Source: Candidatus Hatepunaea meridiana (GTDB lineage: Bacteria > Electryoneota > AABM5-125-24 > Hatepunaeales > Hatepunaeaceae). Taken from it: a stretch of 64,000 nucleotides of DNA. Below, one piece after another: positions 21,825 through 62,233 of the stretch. Made by a program: the position numbers and the translations under genes. Under the pieces are notes generated by a model. It was given only the letters and a program-made list of their open reading frames with translations, was not told the DNA's origin and did not search any database. Location of the stretch: positions 7,033 to 71,032 of the forward strand of contig JAVCDD010000180.1 of assembly GCA_030765125.1 (NCBI GenBank), written 5' to 3'. The stretch's first letter is position 1. Each line of letters begins with the position of its first letter.

Positions 21825-21847
21825 TTGGGGTTTGGGTTTAGCGTGGT

Positions 21848-21918
21848 AAAACCAGCCTGATGGTTGAACTCTGAACTTGAAAACAGCCTAAGGGCTGGAC
21901 TCTGAACTCTAAACTCTG
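21848..21918. repeat. Family C elements: short hairpins followed by GAACTCTGAAC / (AACTCTR)3
   Basis: aaccagcctgatggtt+gaactctgaac is followed by cagcctaagggctgg+actctgaactctaaactctg. Relatives lie at 25747, 50886 and 63787. Confidence 0.65.
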
Positions 21919-21922
21919 TACT

Positions 21923-23830: not shown

Positions 23831-23857
23831 TATCTTTACTCCTAAGATGGGATTGAT

Positions 23858-23944
23858 AAATAGGGGGACAGTATACCTATTTCATAAATACTCTTTGAAA
23901 TAACGACGGTCAATAAAGAAATAGGTATACTGTCCCCCTATTTC
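23858..23944. repeat. Family A palindromic element, intergenic copy
   Basis: The arms aaatagggggacagtatacctatttc (23858-23883) and gaaataggtatactgtccccctatttc (23918-23944) sit in the 131-bp spacer between the Mrp-NifX stop and the OYE start. Confidence 0.8.
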
Positions 23945-23961
23945 CACTTTGTGGTGAGATA

Positions 23962-30409: not shown

Positions 30410-31068
30410 GTTAGATTTCTACCTTTCATTATCACCATTGCCAAAGAAAACGAATTACAAATCTTGAGTTATAAAGTGGAAAGAAACAGGTTAAATTACT
30501 TGGTAATATAATATAATGAGGAAAAACGTTAATAGCAAGAGGTCTTAGGAGTGTCGCGTCTACTTAAGATAATCTAAGCAGGTGTAAAACAAGTGGAATG
30601 AAACACTTAAGTTAAGTATGATTAAGTCGTTTAAGATTAACTATTATTCCTTCAAGTAAACTAATCTTCATAATATCCATATCCCAAAAACTCACATTGG
30701 AACAAATATTGCAGCTATTTAACATAGAGGATGAATTGTACATTTATAATTATGTGATTGTTTGAGTATTCTAATCTACTGTCTTTCTGTATTATAACTG
30801 CGCAAGTTCAACCTCACCATCCAACAATAATATATTTACATAATCCGTAGAAAAATGCAATCGTTCAAATACAACGCATAATATGCACACATAATGATTG
30901 CATCACTTGTCAGAATATACGAGCTGAAATAGATTTAAATGAATCAGGATGCATAAAATGCACTGCAAACAAATATGCTCGTTTTTAAGAAACTAATCAT
31001 CCTGGGCACGGAATCATTCGCGCCTGAGGAAACTATATTCATCAATCACATTTAGCAAGGAGGACATC

Positions 31069-34000: not shown

Positions 34001-34227
34001 TCAACAGCAACGTTCGGATAGATTACAAGTTAGAAGCAAACCAGCAGGTTTCACTGAAAGTCTTCGATCTGTCAGGTCGGTTAATATTCAGCGCTGACCC
34101 GCAGTTACGCACCATAGGTTCACATTCGTTGACATTGGATGCGGTAAATTGGGCGTCAGGTATCTACATCGCTCAACTGAATGCAGACAAGAAGGTAAGA
34201 ACAAAACGGTTTGTCTGTCTGAAATAG
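31069..34227 (+). CDS. Secreted repeat protein (about 12 units of about 60-65 aa with a DG(E/N)xxW signature) with T9SS C-terminal sorting domain
   Basis: A 1052-aa ORF with Shine-Dalgarno aaggagga at 31057-31064 and signal peptide MRCIMLLILSTLLLSAATGDIYA. Recurrent motifs include ADGEPQWG, INGELLWG, SEGNTLWE, TDGEPLWG, QEGERLWD, ADGERLWG, ANGEPVWG and TDGNTLWD. The CTD, LYPNPFNSNVRIDY...GIYIAQL...RFVCLK, spans 33976-34224. Confidence 0.85.
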   Translation: MRCIMLLILSTLLLSAATGDIYAQTNWLKWSPVEGVPVRQGNEIKWTNNGATCIEGERAGETAIVWEDTRNGFRNISIQIIEADGEFHFPEGGVNIFESSTMRYDPVICSGPDGDWFIAWMDVQTGLRPEIRCTRINADGEPQWGADENGISLENRETSGYQPAIISDDNGGCIILWWGHDENNNREIFAMHVLENGEPDENWADGGLPIPNLPGYDLSYNIASDGEGGIIISWLHYLENYTPILMIQRLSINGELLWGDGEAVQICDSPFNGESPKIVSDGDGGAIIEWMDSRNEDDRNTDIYVQRVDSEGNTLWEDNGSQLISTEDFELAPQLVPVSQGEAISVWYVYRQENRIFDIYAMRFGGNDELEKFWEPEEGLPIVVEQDGERERIDIFQDGEGGVFITWVDGRNGGYSGEYDIYAQRLNTDGEPLWGENGIPVSTADGKQDTPLIAPVAGDGCLVVWANGQFSVVRNIQAQILDSEGEAVWDEDSRAIVNADPGSAYQSRLVKAADDVFAVGFIENCFVRSTALPKVKFYRDLGNRVECLNDEGSITVVDNSNIGFSELEIAADGEGGVIVFWSEYRENNRSVFAQRITQEGERLWDNDGVSVFETEGEIFNPIICSDEMGGVFIACNYFRVDMQEILLQHLNADGERLWGNEDVRLLDENSDMLIQGIIPDGENGAAVLYSTINRSEYGLHINRITANGEPVWGNGDGIDINSSEEFRQDQSRMLKHPDGYAVIWQQNRWIDNHRNTCFDVLIQFVDTDGNTLWDENGIQVCNLDAQANNPFGVVDEDGYIWVLWSDDRLDEDRAYSLYLQKIDPLSDENDDPSFMLEENGQQVISAEGSQYQSLLIPDDDGGVWAAWTDSRRQYETDIYATHLDSQGERCEGWADDGNIVCDAIMGQSFPRGAMLRSSGETGIILLWDDWRSSRDEDEGAVLNLYCQRVDDPSENFAGDAASTAPVSFEITALYPNPFNSNVRIDYKLEANQQVSLKVFDLSGRLIFSADPQLRTIGSHSLTLDAVNWASGIYIAQLNADKKVRTKRFVCLK

Positions 34228-35640: not shown

Positions 35641-38600
35641 TTACTTCACCAGCATTACCTTGCGTACGGACTTGAAGTTGGCAGCTTCCATCCGGACAAT
35701 GTAGATACCGGAGGTCATACCAGCTCCATCCCAGACCGCAGTGTAACGACCCGCTTTGAGTTCGTTGTTTATCAGAGTCGTAACCAGACGACCTGTCACA
35801 TCGAACACATTGATCGTAACTTTTGCAGCCTCAGGTAAGCCGTAGTTAATGCGTGTAACCGCATTAAATGGGTTAGGATAGTTCTGAGACAGACTGTACT
35901 CATCCGGTATGCCTGCATCAACCCTGACATCTATTATCGTCAAGGCGTTGGTGAGGTAAACAAGTCCCTTACCAGATTTGATGCTTGCTTTCAGGTTCAC
36001 TTCAGTCTCGTTGGCGTTATTCCACATGCGTAAGGTGAATGCTTCATCTTCCTGCAGACCGTCAACGACGTTTTTAGTGTGTTCAGAATCACCCCAGATA
36101 GGTAATCCACACATTTCGTCGGAAATTGTGCCGACACCTATTAGTTTACCGGAAGCGTCAAAGGCGGCAATCTGATCGCCGTCCTCAACAGGTGTTCCGA
36201 TAATCGAAGTTACCAGTACACTCATGTTGACATCGGTCTTTACAGGGGAAGCCCAGTGGCTGCCAGCTTCGCTTGCAGACATCAGAGCCGCGCCTTGGTC
36301 TTCATCCTCCGGATATAGTAATTCGACATCTTCGTCAACGTTGATCTGGTAACCTTGACCAGGTGTCCACGGTTCCATATTCGAGAAGCCATATGAAGGT
36401 ACCATGAAGCCACCTGGTCCATCTTTGGCAATGATAACATTGTCAACAATAGATGACACAACGTGGAAACCGCTACCGCGTGAAGCTTCCAGATCATAGG
36501 TTGGATAGTAGGCAACTATATTCCAACCTGCATCAACACCTGCAACCACAGTCTGTGGATGGATCGGAACGCCTAACCAAGAGGCTTCGAGTTCTTCGTT
36601 AACGTTCATCAGGTAACCTTCAGCGGTGTTCCAGAAGTCAATACCGTAAAAATCCCAATCCGGGACACAGAAATCACCAGCTTCGTCCTTCATAATAACT
36701 ACGTGGTGGTTATCATCCTCATCCTTGTACTGTTCGAGCATTAGCTCAACATCCGGACCATCATCATCATCGAGATTTTCCCAGTAATCAGCAATTGGAA
36801 TGATGTTCAATGAGATCATGTTCCAGCCTTCGAGATGAAGAATGGTCTGCTCGCGAAGTTGGTAGGCTGTTACACAAGTTACTATCGTTTCACCGTTGTT
36901 AACCCAGACACGCGGACCAGCATTATCTTCTATTTCAGCAGTGGCAAGAAGTTCTTCGTCAGCATCCGGGTCCCAGGCACGATAGTTAATATTATCGCCG
37001 TTTTCGAATCCTTCGACATCATCAGCCGCACCATAAGCGATTAACACAGAGCCTTCGCCACGCCAAACAACACCGCCGGCAAGGACGTCATCGTCAGTGT
37101 ATGCAGCGATTTCCCAACCGTTGGGAACAGGTTCTTCGTCAAATGCGACATCTAAAATGCTCAGATAGTGCATCAGGTTGGTCGTTTCGAATTCAGCGAA
37201 GTGCTGTATACGAGCGCCAAGCTGAAGTTCGACGTCAAAGACTATTTCTGCATTTTCAGGATCGTTAGTAAGGATAGTAACGGTAGCATGATAATCAATC
37301 CAGTCTTCAAGGTCTGCAGGATCAAATGTAAGTATTATCTCTGTCGATTCACCGGCATGTACATCACCTTCATCCGGTTCGGCAGTAACCCAGGTTGAAA
37401 CGTTTGCAAGGTGATCAAGATACCAGATGACAGCTTCGCCTGTTCTTCCCCAATGATAATTAGCTGGGACATTATGCAGATAGCCGTCAACCGTAGTAGA
37501 TACGAGGCAGAAGCCGCGACCGTATTGATAAGTCAGGATGATTGGCTCATTTGTAGGATTACCCATCGCCATTATTTGCACCCATTCGACGTTATCCATA
37601 TTGTCAATGTCCCTCTGGAGAAATACACCATGTGCGCATCCACCGCCGACCAGTCTCTGTCCTTCACCCCATTCCCAGTTAAAGGGATCGTTCTCGTTCA
37701 TATAATTGATGAGGAAGTTCTCTTCAGGGTCCAACTGGAGCGGACACTGATTCTGAGATTGACTACCATTATATACGAGACCACCAGGATTTGTCGGTCT
37801 GGTATTATGATTATTTGTCCCGGAACTGTGATAGAGGGCTCCGCCACCATCAACGAATTCCTCTATACGTTCAAGGTTCTGGTTATATTGAGCTACCCAC
37901 GCATCCGCCTCGTAGTTCCCGATCCACATAAAGTCGTACTCTGTGAAATCAACGTCCTGCACTTGATTCCAGGTGCGATAGCGATCATAATCCAGATCAT
38001 CTATCGCTTGGAAATATCGTTCGAAGTCCCAGTTCGACCAGCCGCAGCGCTCTGCAATCAGAATGCCTCGTCCTTCCGGCTGATCGCGGCGAGGTCCGAT
38101 TGCGCGTTTAGTTGAACGCAGGGAGCGAACAGCGTCATCGCGTTCCTCTTCCTCGATATCTTCGATCTCGATCTCAAAATGCAGGTCACGTCTTTCACCT
38201 TCTTCGTTGGCAAGTACGATGATTTCCTCAACAGGATCGTCACCCATTAGCATCTGAACGATGATTTCGGTTGGGTTATCCGGATCTGTTTCAGGATCGG
38301 TTGATGCGATCGGGGCTAATTCACCTACACCGATCAAATCCCACCAGATTCGGTCATCGTCACCAATATCCTGGTTTTCAGCGTCGGAAAAGATGCTGAA
38401 CGTCGCTTCACGTACTCCAGTCTGACTGGGACTGAAGGTTAATGTGAATGCGAGTTCCTGTTCAGGATCCAGGACCGCCTGGTCATCTATATCCGTGCTG
38501 TAATCGTCGGCAGCATCCCCAGTAAATTCGACACCGTCAATTATAAGATCTGTCGAACCGCAGTTCACGACTGTAATACTTATTTCGGAATCGCCATTTA

Positions 38601-41600
38601 CGTAGGTGTCTTCGAATTCAATATCCTGCGCATTTTCAAACGGTTGCGCTATCGGTTCATATTCCTCATCCCATATAGGAACACCGATAACATCCGCAAT
38701 GACGTTTACAACAAACTCGTCGTTTTCAGGATCGTTGGTAATGAAGATTATATCTGCTTCGTAAGTAAATTCGATCAAACCTTCAGTGTTAAGGGTTACG
38801 AAGACGTCCATATCAGCACCGGGGTCGATGCCACTATCATTTGGACGATCGGGATCCCATGGTGAAGTATCAGGATCAAGTGTGATCCATTTCGCGCCAC
38901 CCATCTCGGTCAGGTATAACAGGAGTTCTGATGCGATAGAGCCCCACTCACCACCGTTACGAGCATAATTGAACCAGCAGTGACCTGTCGAGTGACCGAC
39001 GGTCAGAACAGTACCCTTACCGAAGCCGTAAGCGACAGCGCCAGGTACGTCCTGATTCTGCTTAGTGGCAATAACCTGATACCATTCGAGAGTGCCGTCA
39101 TCTACCTTTTGAACGAACTGGTTTTCAAGGTAACCGGAATGCAGCCATGAGCCGCCTTCAATGAGTTCGCCCTCTTCCCAGTAGTTCGGTTCGGATCTGT
39201 GACAGATCTCGGCAAACAGACTGTAATTGTCATCATTCGGGTCAGGGCTGACAACCAATGTGCCGTTACTGGTTCCTCCGGCTGAATTGTTGACAATATC
39301 GCCGGGACCATGCATGGGGCTGTTGGCGTCAGCAGTTTCATAGTAACATGCGCCACCGTCCGCAACATACTCTTCCAGCCGCTCAAAGTTGTTCTGGTAA
39401 TTCTGGCTGTTCATTGTACTGCGAGCAGCTATTACGATGACGTCATAATCTTCGAATTCAACGTTATCCCAGTCGGCGGCTTGACGATAGGAATGATAGT
39501 TATCGTTGTTCAGGAGCGGATCCCTACGCATACCATCGTCCACCCAGCCCCATGTGGTGCTGGTCTGGAAGGCGGCAAACAACAGTCCGTCGAGTTCGTC
39601 ATCTTCGAGTGGGTCGCGACGCGCCCCAACCGAACCGACTGCATTCAGAGTACGAGCGTTGTTATCACGCTCAGGCTCGCTAATGATTTCGATCTCGGTT
39701 TCGAAATGGAGTTGAGCGCCGTCGTCCCCGGCTTCGTTGGCGACATTCAGGTTATGGATTTCTTCCTGACCGTTGGGAACCTCGGTATCAATCGACTGAG
39801 GTGCGACGGAGAACATTGGCGGTGAAAACGCTTGAGCTACTAAACTCACTGCATATTCCGCGTCGTCTTCGTCGTTATTGAATATAATCAGATCCGGGGT
39901 GAACTCACCGGTTTCACCAGGCATAAAGGTTAAGGTGACAACCTCTTCCTCTCCCGGACCGATTACGAAATCAGCATGATCAACCTCAAAGAATTCATGA
40001 TCAATCTCGCAACCTTCTATTTCAAGATCTTCGGTGCCGACGTTTTGAACGACTATTTCAAGGTCGTAATCGCCGTCAGCATATAATATTTCAGGCCAGA
40101 AGTGATCCTCTGATTCACTATAAGCTGCATTCCAGTCAACGATGCCATGATCGTCCGGATCATCCGGAATGTAGCCCCATTCTTCGGGCCAGATAACATT
40201 GATACCGGGAGCTCCAGATACGTGAATAAGGATATTTACAACTGCATCCTGATTAGCCGGATCGTTGCTTAAGAAATGGAGATTGACTTCGTATTCACCA
40301 CTATATAGACCGAATGTATTAATTGTGATGAATATATCCATTTCTTCATCAGCTCCAAGTCCATCTTCCGGGGATTCCTTTGGATCATACGAGAACCATC
40401 TGACTTCATCAACACCGTCATCGTAAACACGGATGTTTGCCTGCTGGTAGCCACTGCACCAGATATACTCACCGTCATGACCAACCGCACAATAAGGCTG
40501 ACCATTGTTGACTTGGAAGCTTACTACATCGTCTACCTCAACGCATGTCCAATCATCCCTGTCAACGCCAATCTGGTATACGTTGTTTTGGGCGGCATCA
40601 GTCATCCAGAGAGGAGCATCGACATGCGCCGGTACCCACTCAAGGGCAAAAGTAACGACATTGCCGTGGAATGCCTGATGATTGGCAATCACACCGATTT
40701 CCTCACCCACATCGAGACCGTCCACCTCATAGACGTGGATGGAATTAGGAGCGGCATTTTGCATTACGAATATAAGGCTTTCCTCAACGTCAGCCGCGAG
40801 ACCGTAAGCGACGAACGGGAAATTATGAGTTCCAACCAACTGACCATCGCCGTCATATCGACGTACCTGTGCATTTGACCAGTTACCTATCCATAGGTGA
40901 CCGTTAAGCCAGCATCCGTCCATGCAGCTACCGCCTGTGGCGATGCTAATTTCTTCATTGAAATTCTCATAATTAGCGTCATGGGAATAAGCCGCGGCAC
41001 GTTGATTATTGTAGTTAGACACCCACATGCGCTCGTTATCCCAGTCCCAACCAACGCAGGAGCTGTAATGGTTCACGACATTAATACCGTTGAACTGGGC
41101 AATCAGGTCGCCCGGCTCGTCGCGACGCGGACCGGTAGCGCTCCTGGTGCTGCGCAGAGTGCGTGAAGCATTATCACGCTCTTCTTCAGGACCTTCCTGA
41201 ATCATTTCAGCTTCAGTAGTGAAGTGAAGGTCTGCTCTACCTATGTTGGCAACGTTAATAGTCAGCTCTTCCTCGTCGCCGGTGTCCATTTCACGTTCAA
41301 TCTCTCCAGGATCAAGGGAGATCATGGGTGGATCTTGACAGTCTGCGCTTAAATCGAATATGAACTCTTCCAGATCCGGGTCGTTTGTGGATAAGGTAAC
41401 GGTTCCGATGTATTCACCCGCTTCTTCAGCCATGAAGCTGACGGTAATTATACCCTCTTGCGCAGCGATGATGGCGTTATCATCAACGAAGTCTGCAGGA
41501 TCAACGAAGAAGACTTCCACGTCGCCTTCGGTGTCCACGATGATTTCGTCAATAATCAGATCGTCCGTACCTACGTTAATGATAGTTACCGGAATCTGAT

Positions 41601-44600
41601 AGCGGTCATCAGCGCCGCCGTTGAACAGGTTCGGGTTGAATTCTACGTTGAAGTCAACTACACTGTTGGGAATATCATCAGGATCAAAGCCCGGACCCCA
41701 CTCTATAGCGAAGTCAGGAACACCTGTAACGTCAAGATTGACCGTTACGGTTACATTACGATGAGCAGGATCATTGGTTGTGAAGTACATTTCAGCAACG
41801 TACATACCACCAATCAAGCCATCAGCATTGAGGAGGACAATGATTTCCTCTATGTCATCCGCTTCAACTGTGCCTTCTTTGACCATTTCTTCTTCGCCTA
41901 CTCCGTAATCCAGCCATCTGACTTCGGAGACGCCGTCGTCGTAACAATAGAGCCTCGAGTCAGCATGACACGACACGTAGAGGTTTTCACCATCATGTGC
42001 GATCACTGCGTACTCGTTGTTGCTCCTCGTCGGGAAGTTGACGACCGCCTGGTTGCCCACGAACTCAAAATTATCGGTGTCAATATCGATCTGCCAGGCA
42101 CGGTCGCGGGTGTTAACCCACAGCTCGCCGTCCGGGTGCAACGCCACGAATTCAATGGAGCGGAACAGCTGGTTGTTCACAAAGGGCTGGATGTTGCCGA
42201 TTTGACCAATCCGTTCCCCTTCGAGGTTGAAGACACTCAGGTTGAATGGAGCGCCTGAACCCTCGACCGCGTAAATTAATCCTTCTTCCTGGTCTGTGGC
42301 AACGCCGTTGATGCCGCGGTGCCCCTGCAATGCAAGAGCGCCGAGGTTGTTACCCTCGATATCATAGCGGTTCAACGTGGGCACCCACAAATACATTATA
42401 TAGATCACTCCGTCGTAGTATGCCAGATCCATCGGGTTAAGTCCGGTGTTGAATCGTACCATTTCCTCACCATCCGAGGGATCAATGGCAGCCATCAGGT
42501 ACGGATTATTGTACTGCTGGAACCAGAACCACTCGTTGTCCGGGTCATAGCAGCCGTTTTTGTATTGATTGGCGGGAATCGGATGGTTGAAATCGAGGTC
42601 TTCGAGTCTATCACCGGGATTGTCACGGCGAGGACTGGTAACACTCTTTGTACTGCGCAGGGTGCGCGAGGCGTTGTCACGTTCCTCTTCATCACCCGGT
42701 TGGCGGATGATTTCGGCTTCAAGCCGCCATCTCAGCAAAGCGTCACCGGCATTGTAGATCTCCATAGCATGCTCTGCTTGCTCACCCGTAACGAGATCAT
42801 CGTTGATGACAGCGTCTTCATTATCGATATCAATTTGATCACCGTCAACCGAGAGCTCAAAGACCGGTGGAAGCGAGGCTTCTGCGTGCAGATTTACTAT
42901 GAGTTCATCCTCATCGGGATCGTTAGAGATGAATACCAACTCTGCTTCAAAATCATTCGGGTCGTCCACGTCGGCGTCAAAGGTAATCGTAACTACTACA
43001 TCCTCACCATCTTCCCATTCCAGAAAAGCCTCCTGTGGTTCAACGCTGAAGTAATCGTGATCACAGAAGATGTCTTCAACGTCGAGGTCAGCGGTTCCAA
43101 GGTTGGCAAGTATAACCGTCATTTCATAAGGACCGCCTGTAAACAGGTCCTCATACATTAGATTCCAGTCGACGACAGACTCATTGTTCTGATCCTCTAT
43201 CGGATCAATATAACCGTAGGCTTCATCCCATGTAACTTCAATGTCCGGAGCGCCGGTAACGTGTAACAACACGTTAACCGCTTCATCAGGACTTGCGGGA
43301 TCGTTGGAAAGGAAGTGTATATCAGCTTCCCAATCACCTTCAATCAAGCCGGCGGCGTCAAGGAATACGGTAACTGTCATCTCGTCGTCGCCTTCAACAG
43401 CGCCTTCGGCGGGATCAACGGAGACCCATCGCGTCCAGGCGCCTGCAGGACCGCAGCCGATGGCGCGACCCTCAACTATATAGTCTTGACCCTGTCCATA
43501 GTTGACCATACTGAAGCCGTACATGTTGTTATCAATGAAGGCACCGTTAATGCCGGTATGACTGGCTTGCCACCAACGAGGTATGTCATTTATACGATCA
43601 CCATACTGGAATGTGATCATTCCAGCATCATTCAGGATAATCTGGAAACAACCGCCGATACCACCACGAGAATTCCAATTGTGGTAAGTAATGACCATCA
43701 AATCTCTCTCGTTGGTCCATGTATATAATGGTCCACCGCCACCGGAACCGTGCCAGTCACCGTTTAGAATGGCGAGGGTATAGAACCACCCCGCTTGATT
43801 CTGCGGGAACGGACGAGGTGTGTTGATGCTTTGTGCCGAGCGGACGAATCCCGCCCAGCCATCAGTATCGATAAAGATCCGGTTGAAGTTCTCTACGTAG
43901 AACGGGAAGTCCCAACCAAGTTCGACAGCGCCAGTAATCGCATCATCACCCATAACGAACTCACGAACGCCTTCGAACTCCCGGATATCGATCCATTCAT
44001 ACTCAGGACCGTCATCCTCAAGATTATCACGCCACTCGTAGCCCATATCATCGGGGCCACCGCGACGGTCGCGACGGGGACCATCAGCGCGACGGGTGCT
44101 TCGCAGGGTGCGCGAGGCATTATCACGATCGTCGCCAGGCTCTACAATGATTTCAATATCAGTAGTGAATCGCAGCTCTGCATCGCCACTATTTTCAACA
44201 ACTAAGTCATGCTCTTCGAAGCCACCGGTGAAGAGATCGGTCTCGATTGAACCGGGAACGATACGGATAATCGGGGGCAACTCACAGATAACATGCATAG
44301 GAAGTTCAAAGTTTTCCTCATCCGGATCGTCACAGACGAAGGTCATTACTTCCTCATATTCACCCGGATCATCTGCTTCAGCTTCAAATGTTATGGTTAA
44401 ATTAGCGCTTGCGTCCGGTTCGAGAAGCATATCACCCTGATCAACGGTGAAGTATTCGTTATCACAGAAGATATCCTCGATGTCAAGGTCGGCAGTTCCT
44501 TCGTTGGAAACTTGGACGACCATTGTATAGGGACCGCCAGCGAAGACGTCTTCATAAGCAGGATTCCAGTTGAGAACATCGGGATAACCGAAGTCTTCAG

Positions 44601-47600
44601 ACCATTCGACTTCGATGTCCGACGCGGCGGTGAGATGAAGCTGGATATTTATCACCACTCCTTCTTCCTCATTGGGATCGTTGGAAAGGAAGGTCAGATC
44701 AGCTTCGTAATCACCCTCAGCTAAACCAGCGCCGTCAAGTGTAACGGTAACGATCATTGCATCGTCACCTGCAACGGTTCCTTCGACAGGATCGTACGCC
44801 AGCCAGTTTGTTTCAGCGATACCGTCATCGACGATCTGGAATTCCTGTACGACCCGGACGCCGAGCCAGAGGTTTTCACCGTCATGACCGGGGTCACTCC
44901 ACTGGTCGTTGCCGTTATTCCAGGCGGTGTTCTGGACTACTTCAACAAACGACCAATCATCTGTGTCAATCGAGACCTCCATAAGGCGGCTCTGAGTATT
45001 TATCCAGAGCTGACCGTCGGGATGCTCGTCAACCCAGCAGATGCCGCGGCTGAACTGGTTAACAAGAGGACCCTGTCGCCAGTTGATCGTGGCGACACGT
45101 TCCACATTATCGTTAACCGGTCTGACTACGTGCATTCCCCAGGCGCCTGTGCCTTCTATAGCGATAAGCACACCGTTCTCGGGGGAAGCAGCCAGGGCTG
45201 TAACCGAATTGAAGCCCATTGGCAGGTTGCCAAGGTTTTCTCCCTCAGCGTCATGCCTGCCGACAAAGGCGCCCGACCAGGCGACATTGTAGACAACGCC
45301 GTCCATCCAGGCAATGTCCATCACGTTTTGACCCTGGGGTTGATAGGCAATTTCCTCAGTGAAGTTTTCGTAATCACCGTCCCATGATATTGCGGCGATC
45401 CAGTTTGGACTGTAAGTAGCTACCCACATCCATTCGTTGTCAGTGTCGAAATTGGAAGAGTGCTTGTAACCGGCAGCTCCACGAGCCCACCTGTAGGTTG
45501 CTATCACGTCCATGAAATCATCACGACGCGGTCCTTCGGCATTCCTTGTGCTGCGCAGTGAGCGAGCGTTTGCATCGCGATCCGGTTCTGCGACAATCTC
45601 ATGCTCGACAGTGAAGCGCAGATCGGCTTCGCCTTCGTTGGCTACCGTTAGTTCAACATCGACAAGACCACCGGTATACAGATCTTCTTCGATAGAACCG
45701 GGATTAATAGCAATTTCCGGAGGCACGCCTGCATCAGCCAGCAGCGCTATTTCAAAATCCTCTTCATTTGGATCGTTCCAGACGATTACCATCGCCTCTT
45801 CAAACGCATCCCCGCTTGAAGCATCGAACGTAAATGTAAATTCATCGCTCTCGCCGGGTTCTAATGAAGCATCCACCGGATCTGATGTGAAGAGATCGTT
45901 TTCACAGTAGATATCTTCAATTTCCAGATCGTCTGTGCCTGTGTTTTCGATTTCAACGAGAACATCATACGTTTGGTCAACGAAAAGATTAAGATAAGCG
46001 AGATTCCAATCTATTACCGCTACTTCCGGATCTTCATCCCAGCCAATATCCGCAGACCATGTAGCTCCAAGCGCAGGCGCTCCGGTTACGTGCATTATTA
46101 TGTTAAATACTAATTCTTCATTGTCGGGATCGTTGGTAGTGAAAGTCATATCAGCTTCATAGTCACCAGTGAATAAACCTGAGCAATCAAGCGTAACGGT
46201 AACTTCTGCCTGATCGTCAGCTTCAATGGTTCCTTCATCCGGTTCATAAGCGAGCCACTTTGCGCCACCCATCTCGGTCAGGTATAACAGGATTTCAGAG
46301 GCCATGGAGCCCCACTCACCACCGTTACGAGCGTAATTGAACCAGCAGTGACCTGTCGGGTGACCGACGGTCAGAACAGTACCCTTACCGAAGCCGTAAG
46401 CGACAGCGCCAGGTACGTCCTGATTCTGCTTAGTGGCAATAACCTGGTACCATTCAAGAGTGCCGTCCTCTACCTTTTGAACGAACTGGTTTTCAAGGTA
46501 ACCGGAATGCAGCCATGAGCCGCCTTCAATGATTTCGCCCTCTTCCCAGTAGTTCGGTTCGGATCTGTGACAGATCTCGGCAAACAGACTGTAGTTGTCA
46601 TCATTCGGGTCAGGGCTGACAACCAATGTGCCGTTACTGGTTCCTCCGGCTGAATTGTTGACAATATCTCCGGGACCATGCATGGGGCTGTTGGCGTCAG
46701 CAGTTTCATAGTAACATGCGCCACCACCGTCAACATACTCTTCCAATCTTTCAAAGTTGTTCTGGTAATTCTGGCTGTTCATTGAACTGCGAGCAGCTAC
46801 TACGATGACATCATACTCGCTGAAGTCAACATTGTCCCAGTCGCCTGCTTGACGATAGGAATGATAGTTGTCGTTGTTCAGGAGCGGATCCTGACGCATA
46901 CCATCGTCCACCCAGCCCCATGTGCTGTTGATCTGGAAGGCGGCAAACAACAATCCGTCGAGTTCGTTATCTTCGAGTGGGTCACGACGGGGACCATCAG
47001 CGCGACGTGCTGTACTGCGCAGGGTGCGCGAGGCATTATCGCGATCGTCATCACCCGGTTCAGCGATGATCTCAGACGCAATACTCCAATTCAGATCCGC
47101 TCCACCGGTGTTGGAAAGTGTCAACACGTGTTCTTCAATGTCGCCGGTGAAGTAATCTTCCTCAACTGAACCGGGAGCTAACTCAAATGCAGGAGGTGTG
47201 AATGCCTGCGCAACAAGATTTATTTCAATATCCGCAGGCTCATCAGCCGGATCATTCCAAACGATTACCATAACCGCTTCGTGTTGATCCGTATCCTCGG
47301 AATTGAAGATAAAGTTAACTTCAAGGCTCGAATGTCCAATAATCACTGCATCGGCAGGATCACAGGTGAAGCGTTGGTTCTCACAGGTGATACTTTCTAT
47401 TTCGGTGTCGTCTGTTCCCGGATTAATCAATTCGATTGTGACGGGGTAGTCGTGCCCTGCATAAAGTTCTTCATGAGCGGCGTTAAAATCGACTACAGAA
47501 TCACCATTATCCGGATCGAAGCCGTGATCCTCAGACCATGCAACCTCAAGGGCAGGCACGCCTGTTACGTGCATTATAACACTAATTACGACTTCATCAT

Positions 47601-56562: not shown

Positions 56563-56567
56563 TGTTT

Positions 56568-56599
56568 GTGGTGTCGTGGTGTCGTGGTGTTGTGGTGTC
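56568..56599. repeat. Octanucleotide tandem repeat (GTGGTGTY)4 just after the 1830-aa gene stop
   Basis: Units are gtggtgtc (56568-56575), gtggtgtc (56576-56583), gtggtgtt (56584-56591) and gtggtgtc (56592-56599). Confidence 0.85.
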
Positions 56600-56610
56600 G
56601 GGATTTAAGG

Positions 56611-56660
56611 GTAGGACAGACATTCCTATCTGTCGGTAGGTTGGACACTCCTGTCCGACA
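56611..56660 (+). repeat. Two tandem REPs with GTAG heads (type 1 then type 2)
   Basis: GTAGGACAGACATTCCTATCTGTC (56611-56634) is followed by GTAGGTTGGACACTCCTGTCCGACA (56636-56660). Confidence 0.8.
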
Positions 56661-56884
56661 ATCATCGTGTCAGACAATCCCGAAGTTTCGGGATGACCTA
56701 CTGGAAAGTTTTAATCAAGATGGACACTTTTTAGAAACCAGCAGGCGTTTTGCTTGCTGGTTTTTTTATTAGCTTCTGTTTTATCTGATAAAAATGTCTT
56801 CGCAACTCTGTTTAATTCTTGGTAAGCAGGAGTTTTTTATATTATATTATAGAAACAGACGTTCAAGAACAACCGGAGAATAAA

Positions 56885-59800: not shown

Positions 59801-62233
59801 GCCGGTGAACCGATAGGACCGGATGATTACGGTTATATATGCTTTGACAGTCAGGACGAAGACTGGTTTGAAAGTCCTTTCTATTACTGGTATGAAATTA
59901 ATAGTGATGTTGAAGATCACGAATTCCAGGGCACAAAGCTGGATTTTCAACCTGATGCCAATGCGCGCTGGAATGATGCTGAAGTTGTCGAACTCCCATT
60001 CACATTCCAATACTATGGTGATGATTTCGATAATATAACCATTTGCACCAACGGCTTCATTACCATTGGAGATGTCGACACCTTCTTCTATTCACCAAAT
60101 AACCACCAGATACCCGACTATGCTGCACCCGATGGTCAGTTATGTATTCTTTGGCAGGATATTTCCTGCGTGCGACCGCTATACACCGGAGTTTATTACT
60201 ATTATATAGAAGAGGAAGGTGTCTTTGTCGTGGAATGGAGCAATGTTCAAATATGGAGTTCAGATGGTGTCCATAACGTTACTTTCCAAATACTTCTATT
60301 CGATCCTGAATTATATCCAACTGCAACGGGGGATGGTGAGATCGTCTTCCAATACCAGCAATTCCAGGCAATAGAAGGCGCCGATTACCCTCGCTACTCC
60401 ACAATCGGTATTCGAAACCTCGATGGCAGTGGAGGTCTTCAGTACGCTTTCTGGAACCATTATGTCGATCAGGCAAATCCCATTGAGAATGAGTTTGCGA
60501 TTAAGTTTACTACAGCAACCGAGAATGAATATGGATCCGTAGTGGGTCGTGTAGTTAGACTTGAAGATGAGAATGCTGGATTAGAGAGTGTTAGAATAAG
60601 CAGTCTGCGCTTCAGTTCGGTTTTCAGCGATGAGGATGGTTATTTCCGAATCAGAAACCTGCGAACCAGCCGTTTCAATGATGTAAGAGTCTTAAAAGAG
60701 GGCTTCAATACTCGTTTCATTGAGTTTGACATTGCACCCGATGAAGAAACAAACGTCGGGAATGTTACTCTCGCCCACCCGGAATTTTCAGTCGAAACAA
60801 GCCCTGAAGAAGCAGATACACTCTACCTTCGACCTGACGGAACACAACTGCATCTTCGTGTGAATATTGAGAACGATGGCAATGGCGCTTTAGATTATCA
60901 AATCGGTATAGTCAATCACGACGGCAGTGATCTCGATTACGATAACGTTCAAAATATAGGTCTACCCCAAGTGCTTAACGAACCGAGGTGTTACGGCGCT
61001 GTTTATGTGGATTCCCTCTTTTACATCCCAGGCACTAACAGGCACATTAACAACAATGAAGGCGGTCATCTTATTTACGTCATCAATCAGGCAGGAGAGT
61101 TTGTTCGCAGCTTCGAACAACCAATGGCGGAAATCGATTCCAGTGCGAACGGTTTTAATAATCTTGCCTGGGATGGTGAGTATTTATGGGGAGTTGTTAA
61201 AGACTATACCGGTGAGGAAAGAGGACACCTATTTCGCTTTGATCTTGATGGTAATGAAAACCTTCGCATTGTCAACCCGTTTGACCGTTACATGGGGCTG
61301 TCAATAGCAATCAATCCGGAAACCGGTAATCTCTACCTTGCAGATCAAGGTACCGGAGTGGTTGAATTCGAGATCGATAGCTGCAACAACCTTAACGAGG
61401 TCAATCGCTTTTCCATTCACCGTCCCTCATTGGAAGTGCGTATTGTTGGAATTGGCTGGAACGAATATGACCCGGACGGTATGAAGTTGTATTTACTCGA
61501 AAAACAGATGCCGGTTGAAGGTGAATCAATACCAATGCTTCTGAAGATGAACCATGAGACCGGGGAATGGAGGGAAGCTAACCAACTTTACTACACGAGA
61601 GATGCTCCTGCACATCGCGGAATGGCGATTATTCACAACCTTAGCTATGAACGTTCTATGATTGCTATTGTAGAAGACTTTGGCGGTGGTCGTATGGATA
61701 CAGCACGTGACAGCCTGCGCATTTATGAGATCGGTCCAAATTTATCCTTCCTGACAGATGGAGGTATTAGTAACAGGTTGGGAACAATTAATGCAGGAGA
61801 GCAAGGTCAAGCCGGTTTGTTAATGGATGTGAATGGCTGGACTGAGTATAGTTCCGTTTCATTTGGCATCAGGATTGACCACAACGCTGCTGAAGAGGCT
61901 GCTATTATTCCAATTGTATTAAATGTGGATCCAACCACATTCGGATCGAAGAACAATGCTTCTAAACCAACCGATTTCGGGATAACATCCGTTTATCCGA
62001 ACCCGTTCAATTCCGTTGTCAGGATTGAATTCTACATAGACGCCGCTATGCCGACAGCGCTGAAGATATTCGATCTGACAGGTCGGGAAGTAAAAACGCT
62101 ATACGAAGGATTGCCAGAGGTTGGCTATCATCAATTGATATGGGATGGAGCTAAGACTGCTTCCGGCGTGTATTTCTTAAAACTTGAATCGGAAGGACGA
62201 GTGAAGACGGTGAAGATGGCAATTGTGAAGTAA
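56885..62233 (+). CDS. Second gingipain-like (C25 family) paralogue with T9SS C-terminal sorting domain
   Basis: The track ORF starts at a TTG (56819). I prefer the ATG at 56885, which gives MSKKTILLLAFIIFLTLTLFNQG (signal-like). The domain order matches the 1830-aa neighbour: propeptide-like, C25-like (FVTLIGNED..), DxYGYICFD domain, CarboxypepD_reg-like, propeller-like. The CTD, VYPNPFNSVVRIEF...GVYFLKL...KMAIVK, spans 61982-62230. Confidence 0.8.
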   Translation: MSKKTILLLAFIIFLTLTLFNQGYTTTRPTGLSTGSNEFAQILSQSGTDLHIRFTPPASHKRLLDEITASQNQNITNLAYTYWLVVPPMDHVELEIVEQNGRRLSISDRDAPDPYIDREDVKIQTDKYYPPAPVIMGKPQIMRGIRMVPITVFPIQLLQESSQAGTPVSPDGIQKSQHHNITTSQHQIAVENSQIEIKLNFTNDEAINPLLNSAPRQMSHSFANIINSYTLNPPPHLIPRRDLAATELAKSLILYPQVFDDNEDAAEAMIWLNHLVHWKRRQGYYVELAAVEVDRENEDNSDDIKDLIGDYYEDGFEFVTLIGNEDYDELNTVEGNNTELYFPSWMFIIRVVQDTLGNDVIIRGYREHEYSLLEGDDEMPDIIISRIKVPTYDRLVGALRKTIAYQIDPYLDNDNDWYSHSLVTIEEDSIGIIVLSPEYLSLAYWEQARLTQKGYNDIDVILGPVGSFEDGVYVGDDIKEVLEEGVSLALGEGWLYDCVAHRNWEQWEDYAETGRMHPFVIANLSYYEQQVMYPFYASGTSDNLNGPIAGLGIYDTGGRSVYMTHIIGSALMAMTMNDVYTPGHLQIITKMYLSGLIDSVRIYEEDPEEAYISGIITALRLHWTLGDPTVDVFSEFPVQITVDHPESYLIGETSIILNVIDDNDNNVADANVCIYQEDGIHYVTQTNDAGMVVFTIPGDGLEEGELLITASKHNCIPYLPPDPVPVRTGNINLVLEDAGFDDEDNGDDNDDHFRNGEEVVLILTLTNTGDQDAEGVSATLSCDSEWLSFSREGIEFGDIDSDETTTYQGDQVIMTLDMDCPDRSLLRIQADINIDEETITSVAFEITTYGPKLFTAPHLIDVDEGFVGGGENASFSPTIQNLGRTGISTFTAELVSLNELITVTEAERNYGAIEPWLDPEEDPDEQSPNEPFIIDFDELFVAGNEARFELRISAEDDYDTTMIISKFVPSREAGEPIGPDDYGYICFDSQDEDWFESPFYYWYEINSDVEDHEFQGTKLDFQPDANARWNDAEVVELPFTFQYYGDDFDNITICTNGFITIGDVDTFFYSPNNHQIPDYAAPDGQLCILWQDISCVRPLYTGVYYYYIEEEGVFVVEWSNVQIWSSDGVHNVTFQILLFDPELYPTATGDGEIVFQYQQFQAIEGADYPRYSTIGIRNLDGSGGLQYAFWNHYVDQANPIENEFAIKFTTATENEYGSVVGRVVRLEDENAGLESVRISSLRFSSVFSDEDGYFRIRNLRTSRFNDVRVLKEGFNTRFIEFDIAPDEETNVGNVTLAHPEFSVETSPEEADTLYLRPDGTQLHLRVNIENDGNGALDYQIGIVNHDGSDLDYDNVQNIGLPQVLNEPRCYGAVYVDSLFYIPGTNRHINNNEGGHLIYVINQAGEFVRSFEQPMAEIDSSANGFNNLAWDGEYLWGVVKDYTGEERGHLFRFDLDGNENLRIVNPFDRYMGLSIAINPETGNLYLADQGTGVVEFEIDSCNNLNEVNRFSIHRPSLEVRIVGIGWNEYDPDGMKLYLLEKQMPVEGESIPMLLKMNHETGEWREANQLYYTRDAPAHRGMAIIHNLSYERSMIAIVEDFGGGRMDTARDSLRIYEIGPNLSFLTDGGISNRLGTINAGEQGQAGLLMDVNGWTEYSSVSFGIRIDHNAAEEAAIIPIVLNVDPTTFGSKNNASKPTDFGITSVYPNPFNSVVRIEFYIDAAMPTALKIFDLTGREVKTLYEGLPEVGYHQLIWDGAKTASGVYFLKLESEGRVKTVKMAIVK
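57369..57448 (+). repeat. In-frame insertion in the second C25 paralogue: CACAGGC-AGGGAC-GCCTGTG hairpin plus (ATCACAAC) octamer array
   Basis: The hairpin spans 57369-57388, and its core caggcagggacg recurs intergenically at 35425-35436 (and as caggcagggtcg at 35212). The octamers are atcacagc (57409-57416), atcacaac x3 (57417-57440) and atcaaatt (57441-57448). The region codes SSQAGTPVSPDGIQKSQHHNITTSQH, about 25 aa absent from the aligned position of the 1830-aa paralogue. Confidence 0.7.

What the first reader, a model, noticed from the sequence alone, without database searches (positions are those of the whole stretch)
35641..50094. Cassette architecture of the 4817-aa gene: nine ~1.5-kb super-modules of payload + three Ig scaffolds + linker
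Between consecutive PRRD junctions the C-terminal two-thirds is a constant scaffold. It has three parts:
- WxxYEPDEGTIxxDDxxxVTVTLDAxGLxxGDYEADxxFxSNDP.
- A choice-of-anchor-D-like Ig.
- A small Ig ending in ...LRFTxExEII.

The N-terminal ~250-300 aa payload switches among three unrelated types:
- Type A: DDMG(W/Y)EWRDN...WID...FPF(W/Y)...DGW.
- Type B: propeller-like, with YDGELYIV, DGQ(M/L)W(F/I)NT and GHDGxNLW.
- Type C: alpha/beta-like, with YDVIVxAARS and EEYVDGGGACYYE.

The payload order is A-B-C-B-A-B-B-C-C'. Types A and B also occur in both neighbouring C25-like proteins. This looks like a domain-display scaffold into which payloads are swapped.
Basis: seen in the sequence. Interest (0 to 1): 0.8.

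Follow-up and report, generated by a model that had tools for sequence, protein, structure and literature searches.

The report
Giant surface protein with nested domains
This 4817-residue secreted bacterial surface protein is a rod of 17 antibody-like domains, and every second one carries a complete extra domain budding from one of its loops; these nine "payloads" have been copied and exchanged independently of the rod, much like the ligand-binding tips of known giant adhesins but in a different secretion system.

Summary
The ORF (35641-50094, minus strand, 4817 aa), its nine PRRD junctions and the payload order A-B-C-B-A-B-B-C-C' are real. The anatomy needs one correction. The "small third Ig" and the "first Ig" are two halves of one ASH/PapD-like Ig domain. 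The Arg-rich linker plus payload are nested in a loop of that domain. So the unit is one split host Ig carrying a payload, followed by one choice-of-anchor-D spacer Ig.

- **Payloads:** B is an NHL/SGL-like propeller. C has a non-catalytic ThuA/GATase1-like fold. A is a beta-rich domain with no Pfam or listed PDB match.
- **Histories are incongruent:**
  - The two C payloads are 94% identical in DNA, while their host Igs are 40% identical in protein.
  - Host-Ig similarity does not depend on payload type.
  - About 150 metagenomic relatives show other orders, empty sites and other payloads such as PA14.
- **Neighbours:** type A occurs in both C25 neighbours; type B does not.

It most likely works as a multivalent T9SS adhesin or substrate-capture fibre. 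[quoted passage not shown] I rate it a new variant of a known kind.

The parts
35641..50094 (-). Whole CDS: 4817 aa, pI 4.05, D+E 20%, K+R 4.2%
50011..50094 (-). N-terminal signal peptide (aa 1-28, MKGTSIRFLLAICLAFAGYLWLAPAAYA)
   Evidence: read from the translation, (inference; no predictor was run)
49849..50007 (-). Host Ig 1, N-half plus Arg-rich linker ending GPRRD (aa 30-82)
   Evidence: own HMM; BLAST match to the 'small Ig' of the other modules; AF2 strands 3-44 with pLDDT ~90
49240..49857 (-). Payload 1, type A (aa 80-285)
49072..49239 (-). Host Ig 1, C-half (aa 286-341)
48706..49071 (-). Spacer Ig 1, choice-of-anchor D / PF22544 (aa 342-463)
48508..48702 (-). Host Ig 2, N-half plus linker (aa 465-529; linker runs to PRRD at aa 540)
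47740..48477 (-). Payload 2, type B, NHL/SGL-like propeller (aa 540-785)
47563..47739 (-). Host Ig 2, C-half (aa 786-844)
47200..47562 (-). Spacer Ig 2 (aa 845-965)
46993..47196 (-). Host Ig 3, N-half plus linker (aa 967-1034)
   Evidence: AF2 model m2ad290473b60: strands 3-44 have high pLDDT; linker residues 49-71 have pLDDT <50
46258..46992 (-). Payload 3, type C, ThuA/GATase1-like fold (aa 1035-1279). One copy of the recent 735-nt duplicate (46255-46989).
46084..46257 (-). Host Ig 3, C-half (aa 1280-1337)
45727..46083 (-). Spacer Ig 3 (aa 1338-1456)
45532..45723 (-). Host Ig 4, N-half plus linker (aa 1458-1521)
44806..45531 (-). Payload 4, type B (aa 1522-1763)
44629..44805 (-). Host Ig 4, C-half (aa 1764-1822)
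   Evidence: (BACON_2 profile positions 40-78)
44281..44628 (-). Spacer Ig 4 (aa 1823-1938)
44080..44277 (-). Host Ig 5, N-half plus linker (aa 1940-2005)
43429..44079 (-). Payload 5, type A (aa 2006-2222)
43255..43428 (-). Host Ig 5, C-half (aa 2223-2280)
42874..43254 (-). Spacer Ig 5 (aa 2281-2407)
42637..42870 (-). Host Ig 6, N-half plus linker (aa 2409-2486)
41917..42633 (-). Payload 6, type B (aa 2488-2726)
41725..41916 (-). Host Ig 6, C-half (aa 2727-2790)
41335..41724 (-). Spacer Ig 6 (aa 2791-2920)
41131..41331 (-). Host Ig 7, N-half plus linker (aa 2922-2988)
40399..41130 (-). Payload 7, type B (aa 2989-3232). Its Pfam SGL score of 33.2 bits passes the 26.3-bit cut-off.
40216..40398 (-). 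Host Ig 7, C-half (aa 3233-3293)
39826..40215 (-). Spacer Ig 7 (aa 3294-3423)
39631..39822 (-). Host Ig 8, N-half plus linker (aa 3425-3488; junction is ARRD)
38890..39624 (-). Payload 8, type C (aa 3491-3735). Second copy of the recent duplicate (38887-39621): 94.0% nt identity to payload 3.
38689..38889 (-). Host Ig 8, C-half (aa 3736-3802)
38320..38676 (-). Spacer Ig 8, the most divergent choice-of-anchor-D copy (aa 3807-3925)
38095..38313 (-). Host Ig 9, N-half plus linker (aa 3928-4000)
37396..38094 (-). Payload 9, type C' (aa 4001-4233). It is 27-29% identical to the other C payloads. This subtype holds the last position in many relatives.
37219..37392 (-). Host Ig 9, C-half (aa 4235-4292)
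35881..37218 (-). C-terminal region of ~445 aa with no family match (aa 4293-4738). A tail of similar length (~520-550 aa including the CTD) follows the last module in many relatives; it is 46-51% identical in P0009, P0012 and P0013.
35644..35880 (-). T9SS type A C-terminal sorting domain (aa 4739-4817)
   Evidence: PF18962 42.1 bits; TIGR04183 41.2 bits
53878..54390 (+). Type-A-like (NIDO-like) domain in the C25-like neighbour 51070-56562 (aa 937-1107). It is placed in series, not nested.
   Evidence: HMM E 2e-7; Pfam NIDO E 1.2e-5
59816..60319 (+). Type-A-like domain in the C25-like neighbour 56819-62233 (aa 1000-1167)
   Evidence: HMM E 3e-6

Best explanation
The gene encodes a ~530-kDa, hyper-acidic cell-surface fibre exported by the type IX secretion system. 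The source is probably a Calditrichota-like bacterium.

**Shown**
- After a signal peptide, the chain is 17 ASH/PapD-like Ig domains followed by a ~445-aa region of unknown function and a T9SS sorting domain.
- The Igs alternate. A choice-of-anchor-D 'spacer' Ig is followed by a 'host' Ig that is split after its fourth strand.
- At the split the chain leaves through a conserved, disordered, Arg-rich linker (E-P-x-R-D-x3-R-x2-R-x6-G-P-x-R-D). It then folds into a complete 205-245-aa globular payload and returns directly to finish the Ig.
- There are nine payloads of three unrelated kinds:
  - A: beta-rich, distantly NIDO-like.
  - B: six-bladed NHL/SGL-like propeller.
  - C: ThuA/GATase1-like alpha/beta fold without a conserved catalytic triad.
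- Payloads and scaffold have separate histories.

**Inferred**
- As in RTX adhesins, the split hosts hold the payloads out sideways from the rod. The protein then acts as a multivalent adhesin or substrate-capture fibre, presenting nine binding modules of three specificities.
- The split-Ig site acts as a recombination-tolerant socket. Because payload ends meet at one loop, a payload can be copied, replaced or lost without breaking the rod. This gives a family with combinatorial payload sets.

My confidence is about 0.9 for the nested architecture, about 0.8 for independent payload history and about 0.5 for the adhesin function. The figure given for the statement as a whole is 0.6.
For: **Split host Ig**
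- Pfam BACON_2 matched its profile positions 2-40 on a 'small Ig' and positions 40-78 on a 'first Ig'.
- Both AF2 models are confident. The nCc model has pLDDT 86.1 and pTM 0.72. The nAc model has pLDDT 82.0 and pTM 0.67.
- In the models the 46-residue N-half scores pLDDT ~90 or higher, and only the linker falls below 50.
- Relatives hold the same Ig uninterrupted. These are the Caldithrix MAG proteins in L003 and six 'nc' units. Three of the six keep the linker but have no payload.

**Payload identities**
- B reaches Pfam SGL at 33.2 bits against a 26.3-bit cut-off. Its profile finds NHL/SGL propellers in the PDB.

**Independent histories**
-. One example: host Igs 77.5% identical carry B versus C in L001.

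**Family**
- 182 proteins match the C profile at E<=1e-3 among 1.84 billion representatives. Many are 2-5 kaa long with mixed n-X-c-D units in differing orders.
- Other payloads occur, including PA14 (Pfam E 6.7e-15) and Kelch-like inserts.

**Secretion and locus**
- The T9SS tail is confirmed.
- The locus is an island of T9SS cargo.
- Acidity is specific to the cargo proteins: pI 4.0-4.35, against 6.7-7.0 for two cytoplasmic neighbours.

**Precedent for the mechanism**
Against: - No ligand or binding site is identified for any payload. The adhesin function rests on analogy only.
- B keeps invariant His/Asp motifs (HPDGQLW, GHDGxNLW) and could be an enzyme or a metal site.
- No B unit was modelled.
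- The strict conservation of the Arg-rich GPxRD linker across unrelated payloads (P at -1 in 139 of 157 junctions) is not explained by a passive-tether role.
- The M3/M8 event could be gene conversion between two sites that already held C, rather than a new insertion.
Confidence: 0.6

Rival explanations
1. Plain tandem duplication of whole ~490-aa units followed by divergence. Payload and scaffold share one history and nothing is exchanged.
For: - Units have regular length and are adjacent.
- Spacer Igs of the two A modules are each other's best match (53%).
- Across the family, a host Ig's nearest neighbour carries the same payload type in 91 of 168 cases. My estimate of the chance level from type frequencies is ~38%.
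Against: - Payload C of M3 and M8 is 92% identical in protein and 94% in DNA. Their host Igs are 40% identical and their spacers 21%.
- Mean host-Ig identity is the same for same-payload and different-payload pairs (38.8 vs 38.6%).
- The best host partners are chain neighbours carrying other payloads: M2_B-M3_C 61%, M4_B-M5_A 57%.
- In L001, hosts 77.5% identical carry B versus C.
Confidence: 0.05
2. Payload types are fixed per site, and only concerted evolution operates. Gene conversion homogenises like with like: C with C, and scaffolds with neighbouring scaffolds. This would give incongruent similarity without any real replacement of one payload type by another.
For: - The M3/M8 tract ends exactly where homology ends, as expected for conversion between pre-existing C copies.
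- Scaffold similarity decays with distance along the chain, which is typical of local conversion or recent local duplication.
Against: - Family members have different payload orders and counts on the same scaffold.
- They also have payload-free hosts that still keep the linker, and hosts with PA14 or other inserts. These require gain, loss or replacement at sites.
- No pair of clear orthologues differing at a single site was found, so this rival is weakened rather than excluded for the window gene itself.
Confidence: 0.2
3. The protein is a polyprotein. The Arg-rich linkers are cleavage sites for Arg-specific gingipain-like C25 peptidases, two of which are encoded next door. This is the way RgpA/Kgp/HagA are processed in Porphyromonas gingivalis. 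The mature product would be a set of ~490-aa pieces held together non-covalently, or released.
For: - 55 of 170 Arg residues lie in nine 37-aa linkers, where 11.8 are expected.
- Across the family there are 3.7 Arg per 30 aa of linker against 1.25 expected.
- The linkers are predicted disordered in an otherwise acidic protein.
- Two Peptidase_C25 genes with T9SS tails are adjacent.
- HagA-like ~450-aa repeats and gingipain processing are established in P. gingivalis (my own knowledge of the literature).
Against: - C25 adjacency is not conserved in the three relatives checked.
- There is no Cleaved_Adhesin or other homology to gingipain adhesin domains.
- Specificity of these C25 homologues is unknown.
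- There is no proteomic evidence.
- Cleavage is compatible with the main explanation rather than opposed to it.
Confidence: 0.15
4. It is a multi-enzyme display rather than an adhesin. B acts as a lactonase/hydrolase-type propeller and C as an amidotransferase/ThuA-type enzyme, arrayed like catalytic units on a cellulosome scaffold.
For: - B matches the SMP-30/gluconolactonase family. One relative is even annotated 'sugar lactone lactonase YvrE'.
- B has invariant His/Asp motifs.
- C has an enzyme-type fold.
- Neighbouring genes encode degradative T9SS cargo.
Against: - The nucleophile-elbow Cys of GATase1 is present in only 2 of 29 C sequences. No His or Glu is conserved as a triad.
- The best C matches include non-catalytic members of the fold (IFT52, OST48).
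- B reaches the SGL cut-off in one of four copies only, and over a third of the profile.
Confidence: 0.15
5. The repeat structure, or at least the near-identical C pair, is a metagenome-assembly artefact.
For: Repeats of 735 nt at 94% identity are the kind of sequence that short-read assemblers collapse or chimerise. The window protein has no exact copy on record.
Against: - The frame is open for 14.4 kb.
- The two copies differ at 44 positions spread along the tract, 20 synonymous and 18 non-synonymous codon changes.
- The same architecture recurs in over a hundred independently assembled proteins.
Confidence: 0.04

Closest known systems
[quoted passage not shown]
   Same: - Giant fibrillar Gram-negative surface protein built of tandem Ig-like domains.
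- Globular binding domains bud out of an Ig-like domain whose fold is completed after the insert.
- PA14 is among the payloads in relatives.
- Foldseek even lists the FrhA 'split domain' entries among matches to the nAc model.
   Different: - Exported by T9SS (C-terminal PF18962 domain), not T1SS. There are no RTX nonapeptides.
- The Igs are ASH/PapD-like choice-of-anchor-D type.
- Split hosts alternate regularly along the whole length (nine payloads) instead of one to three near the distal tip.
- A conserved Arg-rich GPxRD linker precedes every payload.
- Payload families A and C have no Pfam model.
- There is evidence for payload-only copying.
Giant T9SS cargo adhesins of Bacteroidota (SprB and RemA of Flavobacterium johnsoniae); from my own knowledge, not tested here
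   Same: Very large repetitive cell-surface proteins carrying a T9SS C-terminal domain.
   Different: No sequence relationship was tested. To my knowledge a regular split-Ig, nested-payload organisation has not been described for them. No gliding function can be inferred here.
Porphyromonas gingivalis HagA/RgpA/Kgp adhesin polyproteins (my own knowledge; T9SS background in PMC4560394)
   Same: T9SS cargo with ~450-aa repeated units, Arg-containing junctions, and C25 peptidases in the same system.
   Different: No homology to gingipain adhesin (Cleaved_Adhesin) domains was found. Processing is untested. Here the units are nested rather than serial.
ASH/PapD-like Ig arrays: HYDIN, CFAP65, CEP192, VesB, and bacterial choice-of-anchor D (NF012200, PF22544)
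   Same: Same Ig fold for both spacer and host domains.
   Different: Those families are not known to me as regular hosts of nested domains. The function is unrelated (cilia, centrosome).
ThuA / class-I glutamine-amidotransferase-like fold, including non-catalytic IFT52/OST48 'GIFT'-type domains
   Different: - No Pfam or NCBIfam hit.
- No conserved Cys-His-Glu triad.
- Extracellular and nested in an Ig.

Membership tests
T9SS type A cargo | C-terminal sorting domain (TIGR04183 / PF18962) at the extreme C-terminus | tested here: met
   PF18962 scores 42.1 bits (cut-off 27) at aa 4739-4814. TIGR04183 scores 41.2 bits (cut-off 23).
T9SS type A cargo | Sec signal peptide at the N-terminus | tested here: inconclusive
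   A hydrophobic N-terminus ending AYA|D is seen in the translation. No signal-peptide predictor was available.
T9SS type A cargo | T9SS machinery (PorK/L/M/N, Sov, PorU/V) in the same genome | not testable with these tools
   Only a 64-kb window is held. Four other proteins in the window carry the same tail.
choice-of-anchor D domain (NF012200) / PF22544 HYDIN-VesB-CFA65-like Ig | Profile match above the curated cut-off | tested here: met
   NF012200 scores 137.5 bits against 45. PF22544 is above 25.5 bits in 7 of 8 spacer Igs.
ASH/PapD-like Ig fold (for the split host domain) | A single seven-to-nine-strand sandwich that superposes on ASH/MSP/PapD domains | tested here: met
RTX adhesin | C-terminal RTX nonapeptide beta-roll and T1SS signal | tested here: not met
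   No GGxGxDxUx match in 4817 aa. The C-terminus is a T9SS domain.
RTX adhesin | Ligand-binding domains emerging from split Ig-like domains | tested here: met
   The definition is taken from PMC12077191. It works like one but is not a member.
Class-I glutamine amidotransferase / ThuA-like (payload C) | Flavodoxin-like alpha/beta fold of the family | tested here: met
Class-I glutamine amidotransferase / ThuA-like (payload C) | Conserved nucleophile Cys with a His/Glu triad, or a sequence-profile match | tested here: not met
   Cys at the elbow occurs in 2 of 29 sequences. No His or Glu is conserved. There are no Pfam hits even at E<=10.
SMP-30/gluconolactonase/LRE (SGL) or NHL six-bladed propeller (payload B) | Profile match above the cut-off | tested here: inconclusive
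   - SGL scores 33.2 bits (cut-off 26.3) for payload 7 only, covering profile positions 136-223 of 246. It scores 18.4 bits for payload 2.
- The PDB profile search finds only weak hits to designed, NHL and SGL propellers (E 7e-5 to 0.3).
- No model was built.
NIDO (PF06119) (payload A) | Profile match | tested here: inconclusive
   None of the 17 payload-A sequences scanned (both window copies, 14 nAc units of relatives and the partial P0005) hits NIDO at E<=1. Only the A-like domain of neighbour 51070-56562 does (E 1.2e-5). That domain in turn matches the A HMM at E 2e-7, so the link is transitive only.
Gingipain-type adhesin polyprotein (HagA/RgpA/Kgp) | Cleaved_Adhesin / haemagglutinin domains and proteolytic maturation at Arg/Lys | tested here: not met
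   No such Pfam domains were found. Proteolysis is not testable with these tools.

The most novel reading that the evidence does not exclude
The invariant Arg-rich GPxRD linkers may be maturation sites cut by gingipain-like C25 peptidases. Each cut lies inside a split PapD-like Ig. Cleavage would therefore convert the single 4817-aa chain into about ten ~490-aa links, each made of payload, C-half, spacer and the next N-half. The links would stay joined only by beta-sandwich complementation between halves. That would be a T9SS-built, non-covalent 'bead chain' whose links could in principle be exchanged after secretion. It would be conceptually akin to donor-strand complementation in chaperone-usher pili and to gingipain-triggered strand exchange in type V pili.
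Probability: 0.08. Interest if true: 0.85.

Novelty: new variant of a known kind. Interest (0 to 1): 0.62.

Why it matters
- **Wider principle.** The split-domain way of presenting binding modules, worked out for T1SS RTX adhesins of pathogens, would also be used by T9SS cargo in an uncultured marine lineage. It has apparently arisen on a different Ig fold. Here it runs along the whole fibre with a regular one-in-two rhythm.
- **A sequence signature.** The pattern is N-half, then E-P-x-R-D...G-P-x-R-D, then insert, then W-x-x-x-E/D-P-x-x-G. It marks payload boundaries to within a few residues. This can be used to mine undescribed extracellular binding or catalytic domains from metagenomes. Types A and C have no Pfam model, and further 200-340-aa inserts were seen.
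- **A view of domain shuffling.** It gives a clean natural example of domain-level cassette evolution inside one gene. A 735-nt payload copy sits between hosts that are 40% identical.
- **Ecology.** These fibres sit beside secreted peptidases and beta-helix proteins. They may be how such bacteria hold on to particulate substrates.

Tried and rejected
- **Word-index homologue searches.** With the nCc and nAc units they found only 4 and 1 proteins. The exhaustive HMMER search was needed to see the family.
- **The search for related loci.** A 4-sequence alignment worked.
- **AFDB50 Foldseek library.** It was unavailable, so payload A could be compared only with the PDB. No payload-sized match appeared there.
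- **Type B in the C25 neighbours.** Rejected.
- **NIDO membership of payload A.** Not demonstrable directly.
- **GATase catalytic triad in C.** Rejected.
- **RTX repeats.** None found.
- **Conserved linkage to C25 genes.** Rejected on three relatives.
- **Salt-in halophily as the cause of the acidity.** Rejected, because two cytoplasmic neighbours have pI 6.7-7.0 and two further neighbours pI ~5.2.
- **Close orthologue for site-by-site comparison.** None was found. Different pieces of the protein have their best hits in different relatives at 35-75% identity.
- **Exact look-up of the window protein.** It found nothing.
- **Rfam on 1-21 kb.** It found nothing. That apparently gene-poor stretch is a second giant gene.
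- **Literature searches.** Searches on Calditrichaeota, T9SS and choice-of-anchor D found no description of this family.


Full report
**1. Checking the observation**

The window holds one uninterrupted ORF on the minus strand, 35641..50094, encoding 4817 aa.
- [PA]RRD motifs lie at aa 80, 540, 1035, 1522, 2006, 2488, 2989, 3491 and 4001.

I cut the protein at these junctions and compared the nine pieces with BLASTP.
- The last ~250 aa of each piece match all other pieces (E 1e-17 to 1e-78).
- The first 205-245 aa match only within three classes: A (M1, M5), B (M2, M4, M6, M7) and C (M3, M8, and more distantly M9).
- HMMs of A, B and C do not cross-hit.

So the order A-B-C-B-A-B-B-C-C' is real and far beyond chance.
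- The middle Ig is choice-of-anchor D (NF012200, 137.5 bits) and PF22544.
- The C-terminus is a T9SS type A sorting domain.

**2. The anatomy is different from what was proposed**

Three observations suggested that the 'small third Ig' (~45 aa) and the 'first Ig' (~58 aa) are halves of one domain.
- Each is too short to be an Ig.
- The protein begins with an orphan 'small Ig' (aa 30-77) and module 9 ends after a 'first Ig'.
- Pfam BACON_2 matched its profile positions 2-40 on a small Ig and positions 40-78 on a first Ig.

Four independent tests agree.
- **Tandem ~750-aa proteins of a Caldithrix MAG (L003).** They contain the two halves directly joined (...GEAELRWQAEIVSVDTLGFDDPDETEILIEPSRGAI...).
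- **Family proteins.** Six more payload-free 'nc' Igs exist. Three lack the linker. Three keep the Arg-rich linker but have no payload.
- **AF2 model of aa 968-1341** (N-half, linker, payload C, C-half; 29-sequence alignment). It has mean pLDDT 86.1 and pTM 0.72. The N-half strands score ~90 or higher, and only the linker (residues 49-71) is below 50.
  - The C-half alone has ~58 residues, so both halves must form that one sandwich.
- **AF2 model of aa 28-350** (payload A; pLDDT 82.0, pTM 0.67). It gives the same result.

I could not read coordinates. Packing is therefore inferred from aligned lengths and confidence values, not measured.

The repeating unit is thus one split host Ig, cut after its fourth strand, with linker and payload nested in it, followed by one choice-of-anchor-D spacer Ig.

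The whole protein reads as follows:
- signal peptide;
- 9 host Igs and 8 spacers, 17 Igs in all;
- a ~445-aa region with no family match. A tail of similar length follows the last module in many relatives, and it is 46-51% identical in three of them;
- the T9SS domain.

**3. What the payloads are**

*Payload C*
- It has no Pfam or NCBIfam match.
- The nucleophile-elbow Cys is present in only 2 of 29 family sequences, and no His/Glu triad is conserved.
- The conserved residues are mostly aromatic (W92, Y161, W216, Y266, W294, Y304), plus N146, R149, E152 and N200.

*Payload B*
- It reaches the Pfam SGL cut-off in one copy (33.2 bits against 26.3).
- Its profile finds only six-bladed NHL/SGL-type propellers in the PDB, and weakly.
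- It keeps invariant HPDGQLW and GHDGxNLW motifs.

*Payload A*
- It is beta-rich and has no Pfam hit.
- It is related to a domain in both C25-like neighbours (E 2e-7 and 3e-6). One of those domains matches NIDO at E 1.2e-5, so the NIDO link is transitive only.
- Type B is not detectable in the neighbours.

**4. The linker**

Every payload, whatever its type, is preceded by a ~25-aa stretch predicted to be disordered.
- Consensus over 157 junctions of the family: E-P-x-R-D-x3-R-x2-R-x6-G-P-x-R-D. Pro is at -1 in 139 of 157 junctions.
- It concentrates Arg in a protein with pI 4.05. In the window gene, 55 of 170 Arg lie in 7% of the length. Family-wide there are 3.7 Arg per 30 aa against 1.25 expected.
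- The payload returns to the Ig without any linker.
- This conservation is unexplained by a simple tether role.

**5. Scaffold and payload histories are incongruent**

- *The two C payloads.* Payloads of modules 3 and 8 differ at 44 of 735 nt (94.0% identity; 20 synonymous and 18 non-synonymous codon differences). Third positions are mostly 85-100% identical.
  - Identity drops to ~50% nt, and ~25% at third positions, exactly at RRD|P on one side and GGAKW on the other.
  - Their host Igs are 40% identical and their spacers 21%.
- *Within the gene.* Host-Ig identity averages 38.8% for same-payload pairs (n=10) and 38.6% for different-payload pairs (n=26). The best partners are chain neighbours with other payloads: M2_B-M3_C 61%, M4_B-M5_A 57%.
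- *Family-wide.*
  - Hosts 77.5% identical carry B versus C (L001).
  - Hosts 67% identical carry B versus C (P0008).
  - A host's nearest neighbour has the same payload type in 91 of 168 cases. By my estimate ~38% would be expected by chance.

What remains open is how far this reflects true replacement of one type by another, and how far like-with-like conversion plus scaffold homogenisation.

**6. The family**

- A profile of payload C found 182 proteins (E<=1e-3) among 1.84 billion representatives, 68 of them at E<=1e-30. Many are 2-5 kaa long.
- I mapped them with my own HMMs for N-half+linker (n), C-half (c), spacer (D) and A/B/C. They show the same n-X-c-D grammar with different contents:

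| Protein | Payload order |
|---|---|
| P0008 | C-B-C-A-B-C-A-B-C-A |
| P0009 | A-A-C-B-B-B-C-C |
| P0007 | A-C-A-C-A-C-B |
| P0044 | A-C-B-B-B-B-B-C |
| P0050 | B x6 then C |
| P0006 | C-C-C-C-empty-C-B |
| L001 MAG | A-C-B-C-A-C-C-A |

- Other inserts occur in the same socket:
  - a PA14 domain (Pfam E 6.7e-15);
  - C-like variants;
  - 200-340-aa inserts, some Kelch-like.
- The C' subtype typically occupies the last position.
- The only source-given names among the ten clusters looked up are 'T9SS type A sorting domain-containing protein' and a misleading 'sugar lactone lactonase YvrE'.
- I found no paper describing the family.
- Source records of relatives point to Calditrichota. The window's own taxon was not determined.

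**7. Context**

- The gene lies in an island of T9SS cargo:
  - a beta-helix protein;
  - an 1052-aa repeat protein;
  - two Peptidase_C25 proteins with CarboxypepD_reg domains.
- These secreted proteins are all very acidic (pI 4.0-4.35). Two cytoplasmic neighbours are not (pI 6.7-7.0).
- The neighbourhood is not conserved in relatives.

**8. How it most likely works**

- *Shown:* the architecture, the T9SS signal, the payload folds for B and C, and the independent payload history.
- *Inferred by analogy:* split hosts project the payloads sideways from a rod of Igs. [quoted passage not shown] The protein would then be a multivalent adhesin or substrate-capture fibre with three specificities in nine copies.
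- *Inferred about evolution:* because each payload enters and leaves through one loop, the socket tolerates copying, loss and replacement. This explains the combinatorial family.
- *Rivals:*
  - whole-unit duplication (contradicted);
  - conversion only (weakened);
  - an enzyme array (C unlikely, B open);
  - a C25-processed polyprotein (compatible, untested);
  - assembly artefact (unlikely).

**9. Comparison and verdict**

The protein works like an RTX adhesin ligand-binding region but is not one.
- It has no RTX repeats.
- It carries a T9SS rather than a T1SS signal.
- It uses a different Ig family.
- Hosts alternate regularly along the whole length.
- It has a conserved Arg-rich linker.

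I file it as a new variant of a known kind, with two payload families that lack any model in Pfam.

My confidence is about 0.9 in the nested split-Ig architecture, about 0.8 in independent payload history, and about 0.5 in the adhesin function.

Noticed in passing
window 3-19862, minus strand: A second giant gene starts near 19862 with a signal peptide and runs off the left end of the window. At least 6,620 aa lie in the window, and D+E is 20%. The ORF listing does not show it because it runs off the end. Its ~450-aa repeat is a right-handed beta-helix-like module (DVPDDxxTIQEAI...PGxYxENINF) plus one or two choice-of-anchor-D Igs (21 hits, E 1e-13 to 1e-22). My N-half/linker HMM gives no hits, so it appears not to use the split-Ig/PRRD socket.
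   Followed up: partly
window 27068-34227 and 51070-62233: The finding lies in an island of T9SS cargo genes:
- a beta-helix/NosD-like protein of 1113 aa;
- an 1052-aa repeat protein with no Pfam domain apart from the tail;
- two 1.8-kaa Peptidase_C25 proteins with CarboxypepD_reg domains.

All have pI 4.1-4.35, while two cytoplasmic neighbours have pI 6.7-7.0.
   Followed up: partly
window 35881-37218, minus strand (aa 4293-4738): A ~445-aa region lies between the last host Ig and the T9SS domain and has no family match. A tail of similar length (~520-550 aa including the CTD) follows the last module in many relatives. It is 46-51% identical in P0009, P0012 and P0013. By eye it seems to contain two related ~110-aa beta-rich segments. 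Its role (stalk or anchor?) is unknown.
   Followed up: no
L003:8927-15937 (uncultured Caldithrix sp. contig CAYHEC010000003.1): There are at least three tandem ~750-aa paralogues. Each is a minimal version of the architecture: one split Ig with a B payload, one spacer, one intact (payload-free) Ig and a T9SS tail. They look like the single-module form of the family.
   Followed up: partly
L005:10001-34535 (ENA ERZ23498668 scaffold_1412): Two giant family genes lie in tandem (4844 aa, then at least 4288 aa). Upstream are four ~510-aa genes with no Pfam hit.
   Followed up: no
P0121, P0125, P0095, P0119 (distant hits of the payload-C profile): These more distant giant proteins have Ig pairs separated by 200-340-aa inserts of further kinds (Kelch-like, propeller-like, C-like, unknown). 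This suggests many more payload families in the same or a similar socket.
   Followed up: partly
window 20784-25176, minus strand: Next to the cargo island lie a radical SAM/SPASM protein, an Old-Yellow-Enzyme-type flavin/pyridine-nucleotide oxidoreductase, and a NUBPL/Mrp-type ATPase fused to a dinitrogenase FeMo-cofactor-binding-like domain. No link to the finding is apparent.
   Followed up: no
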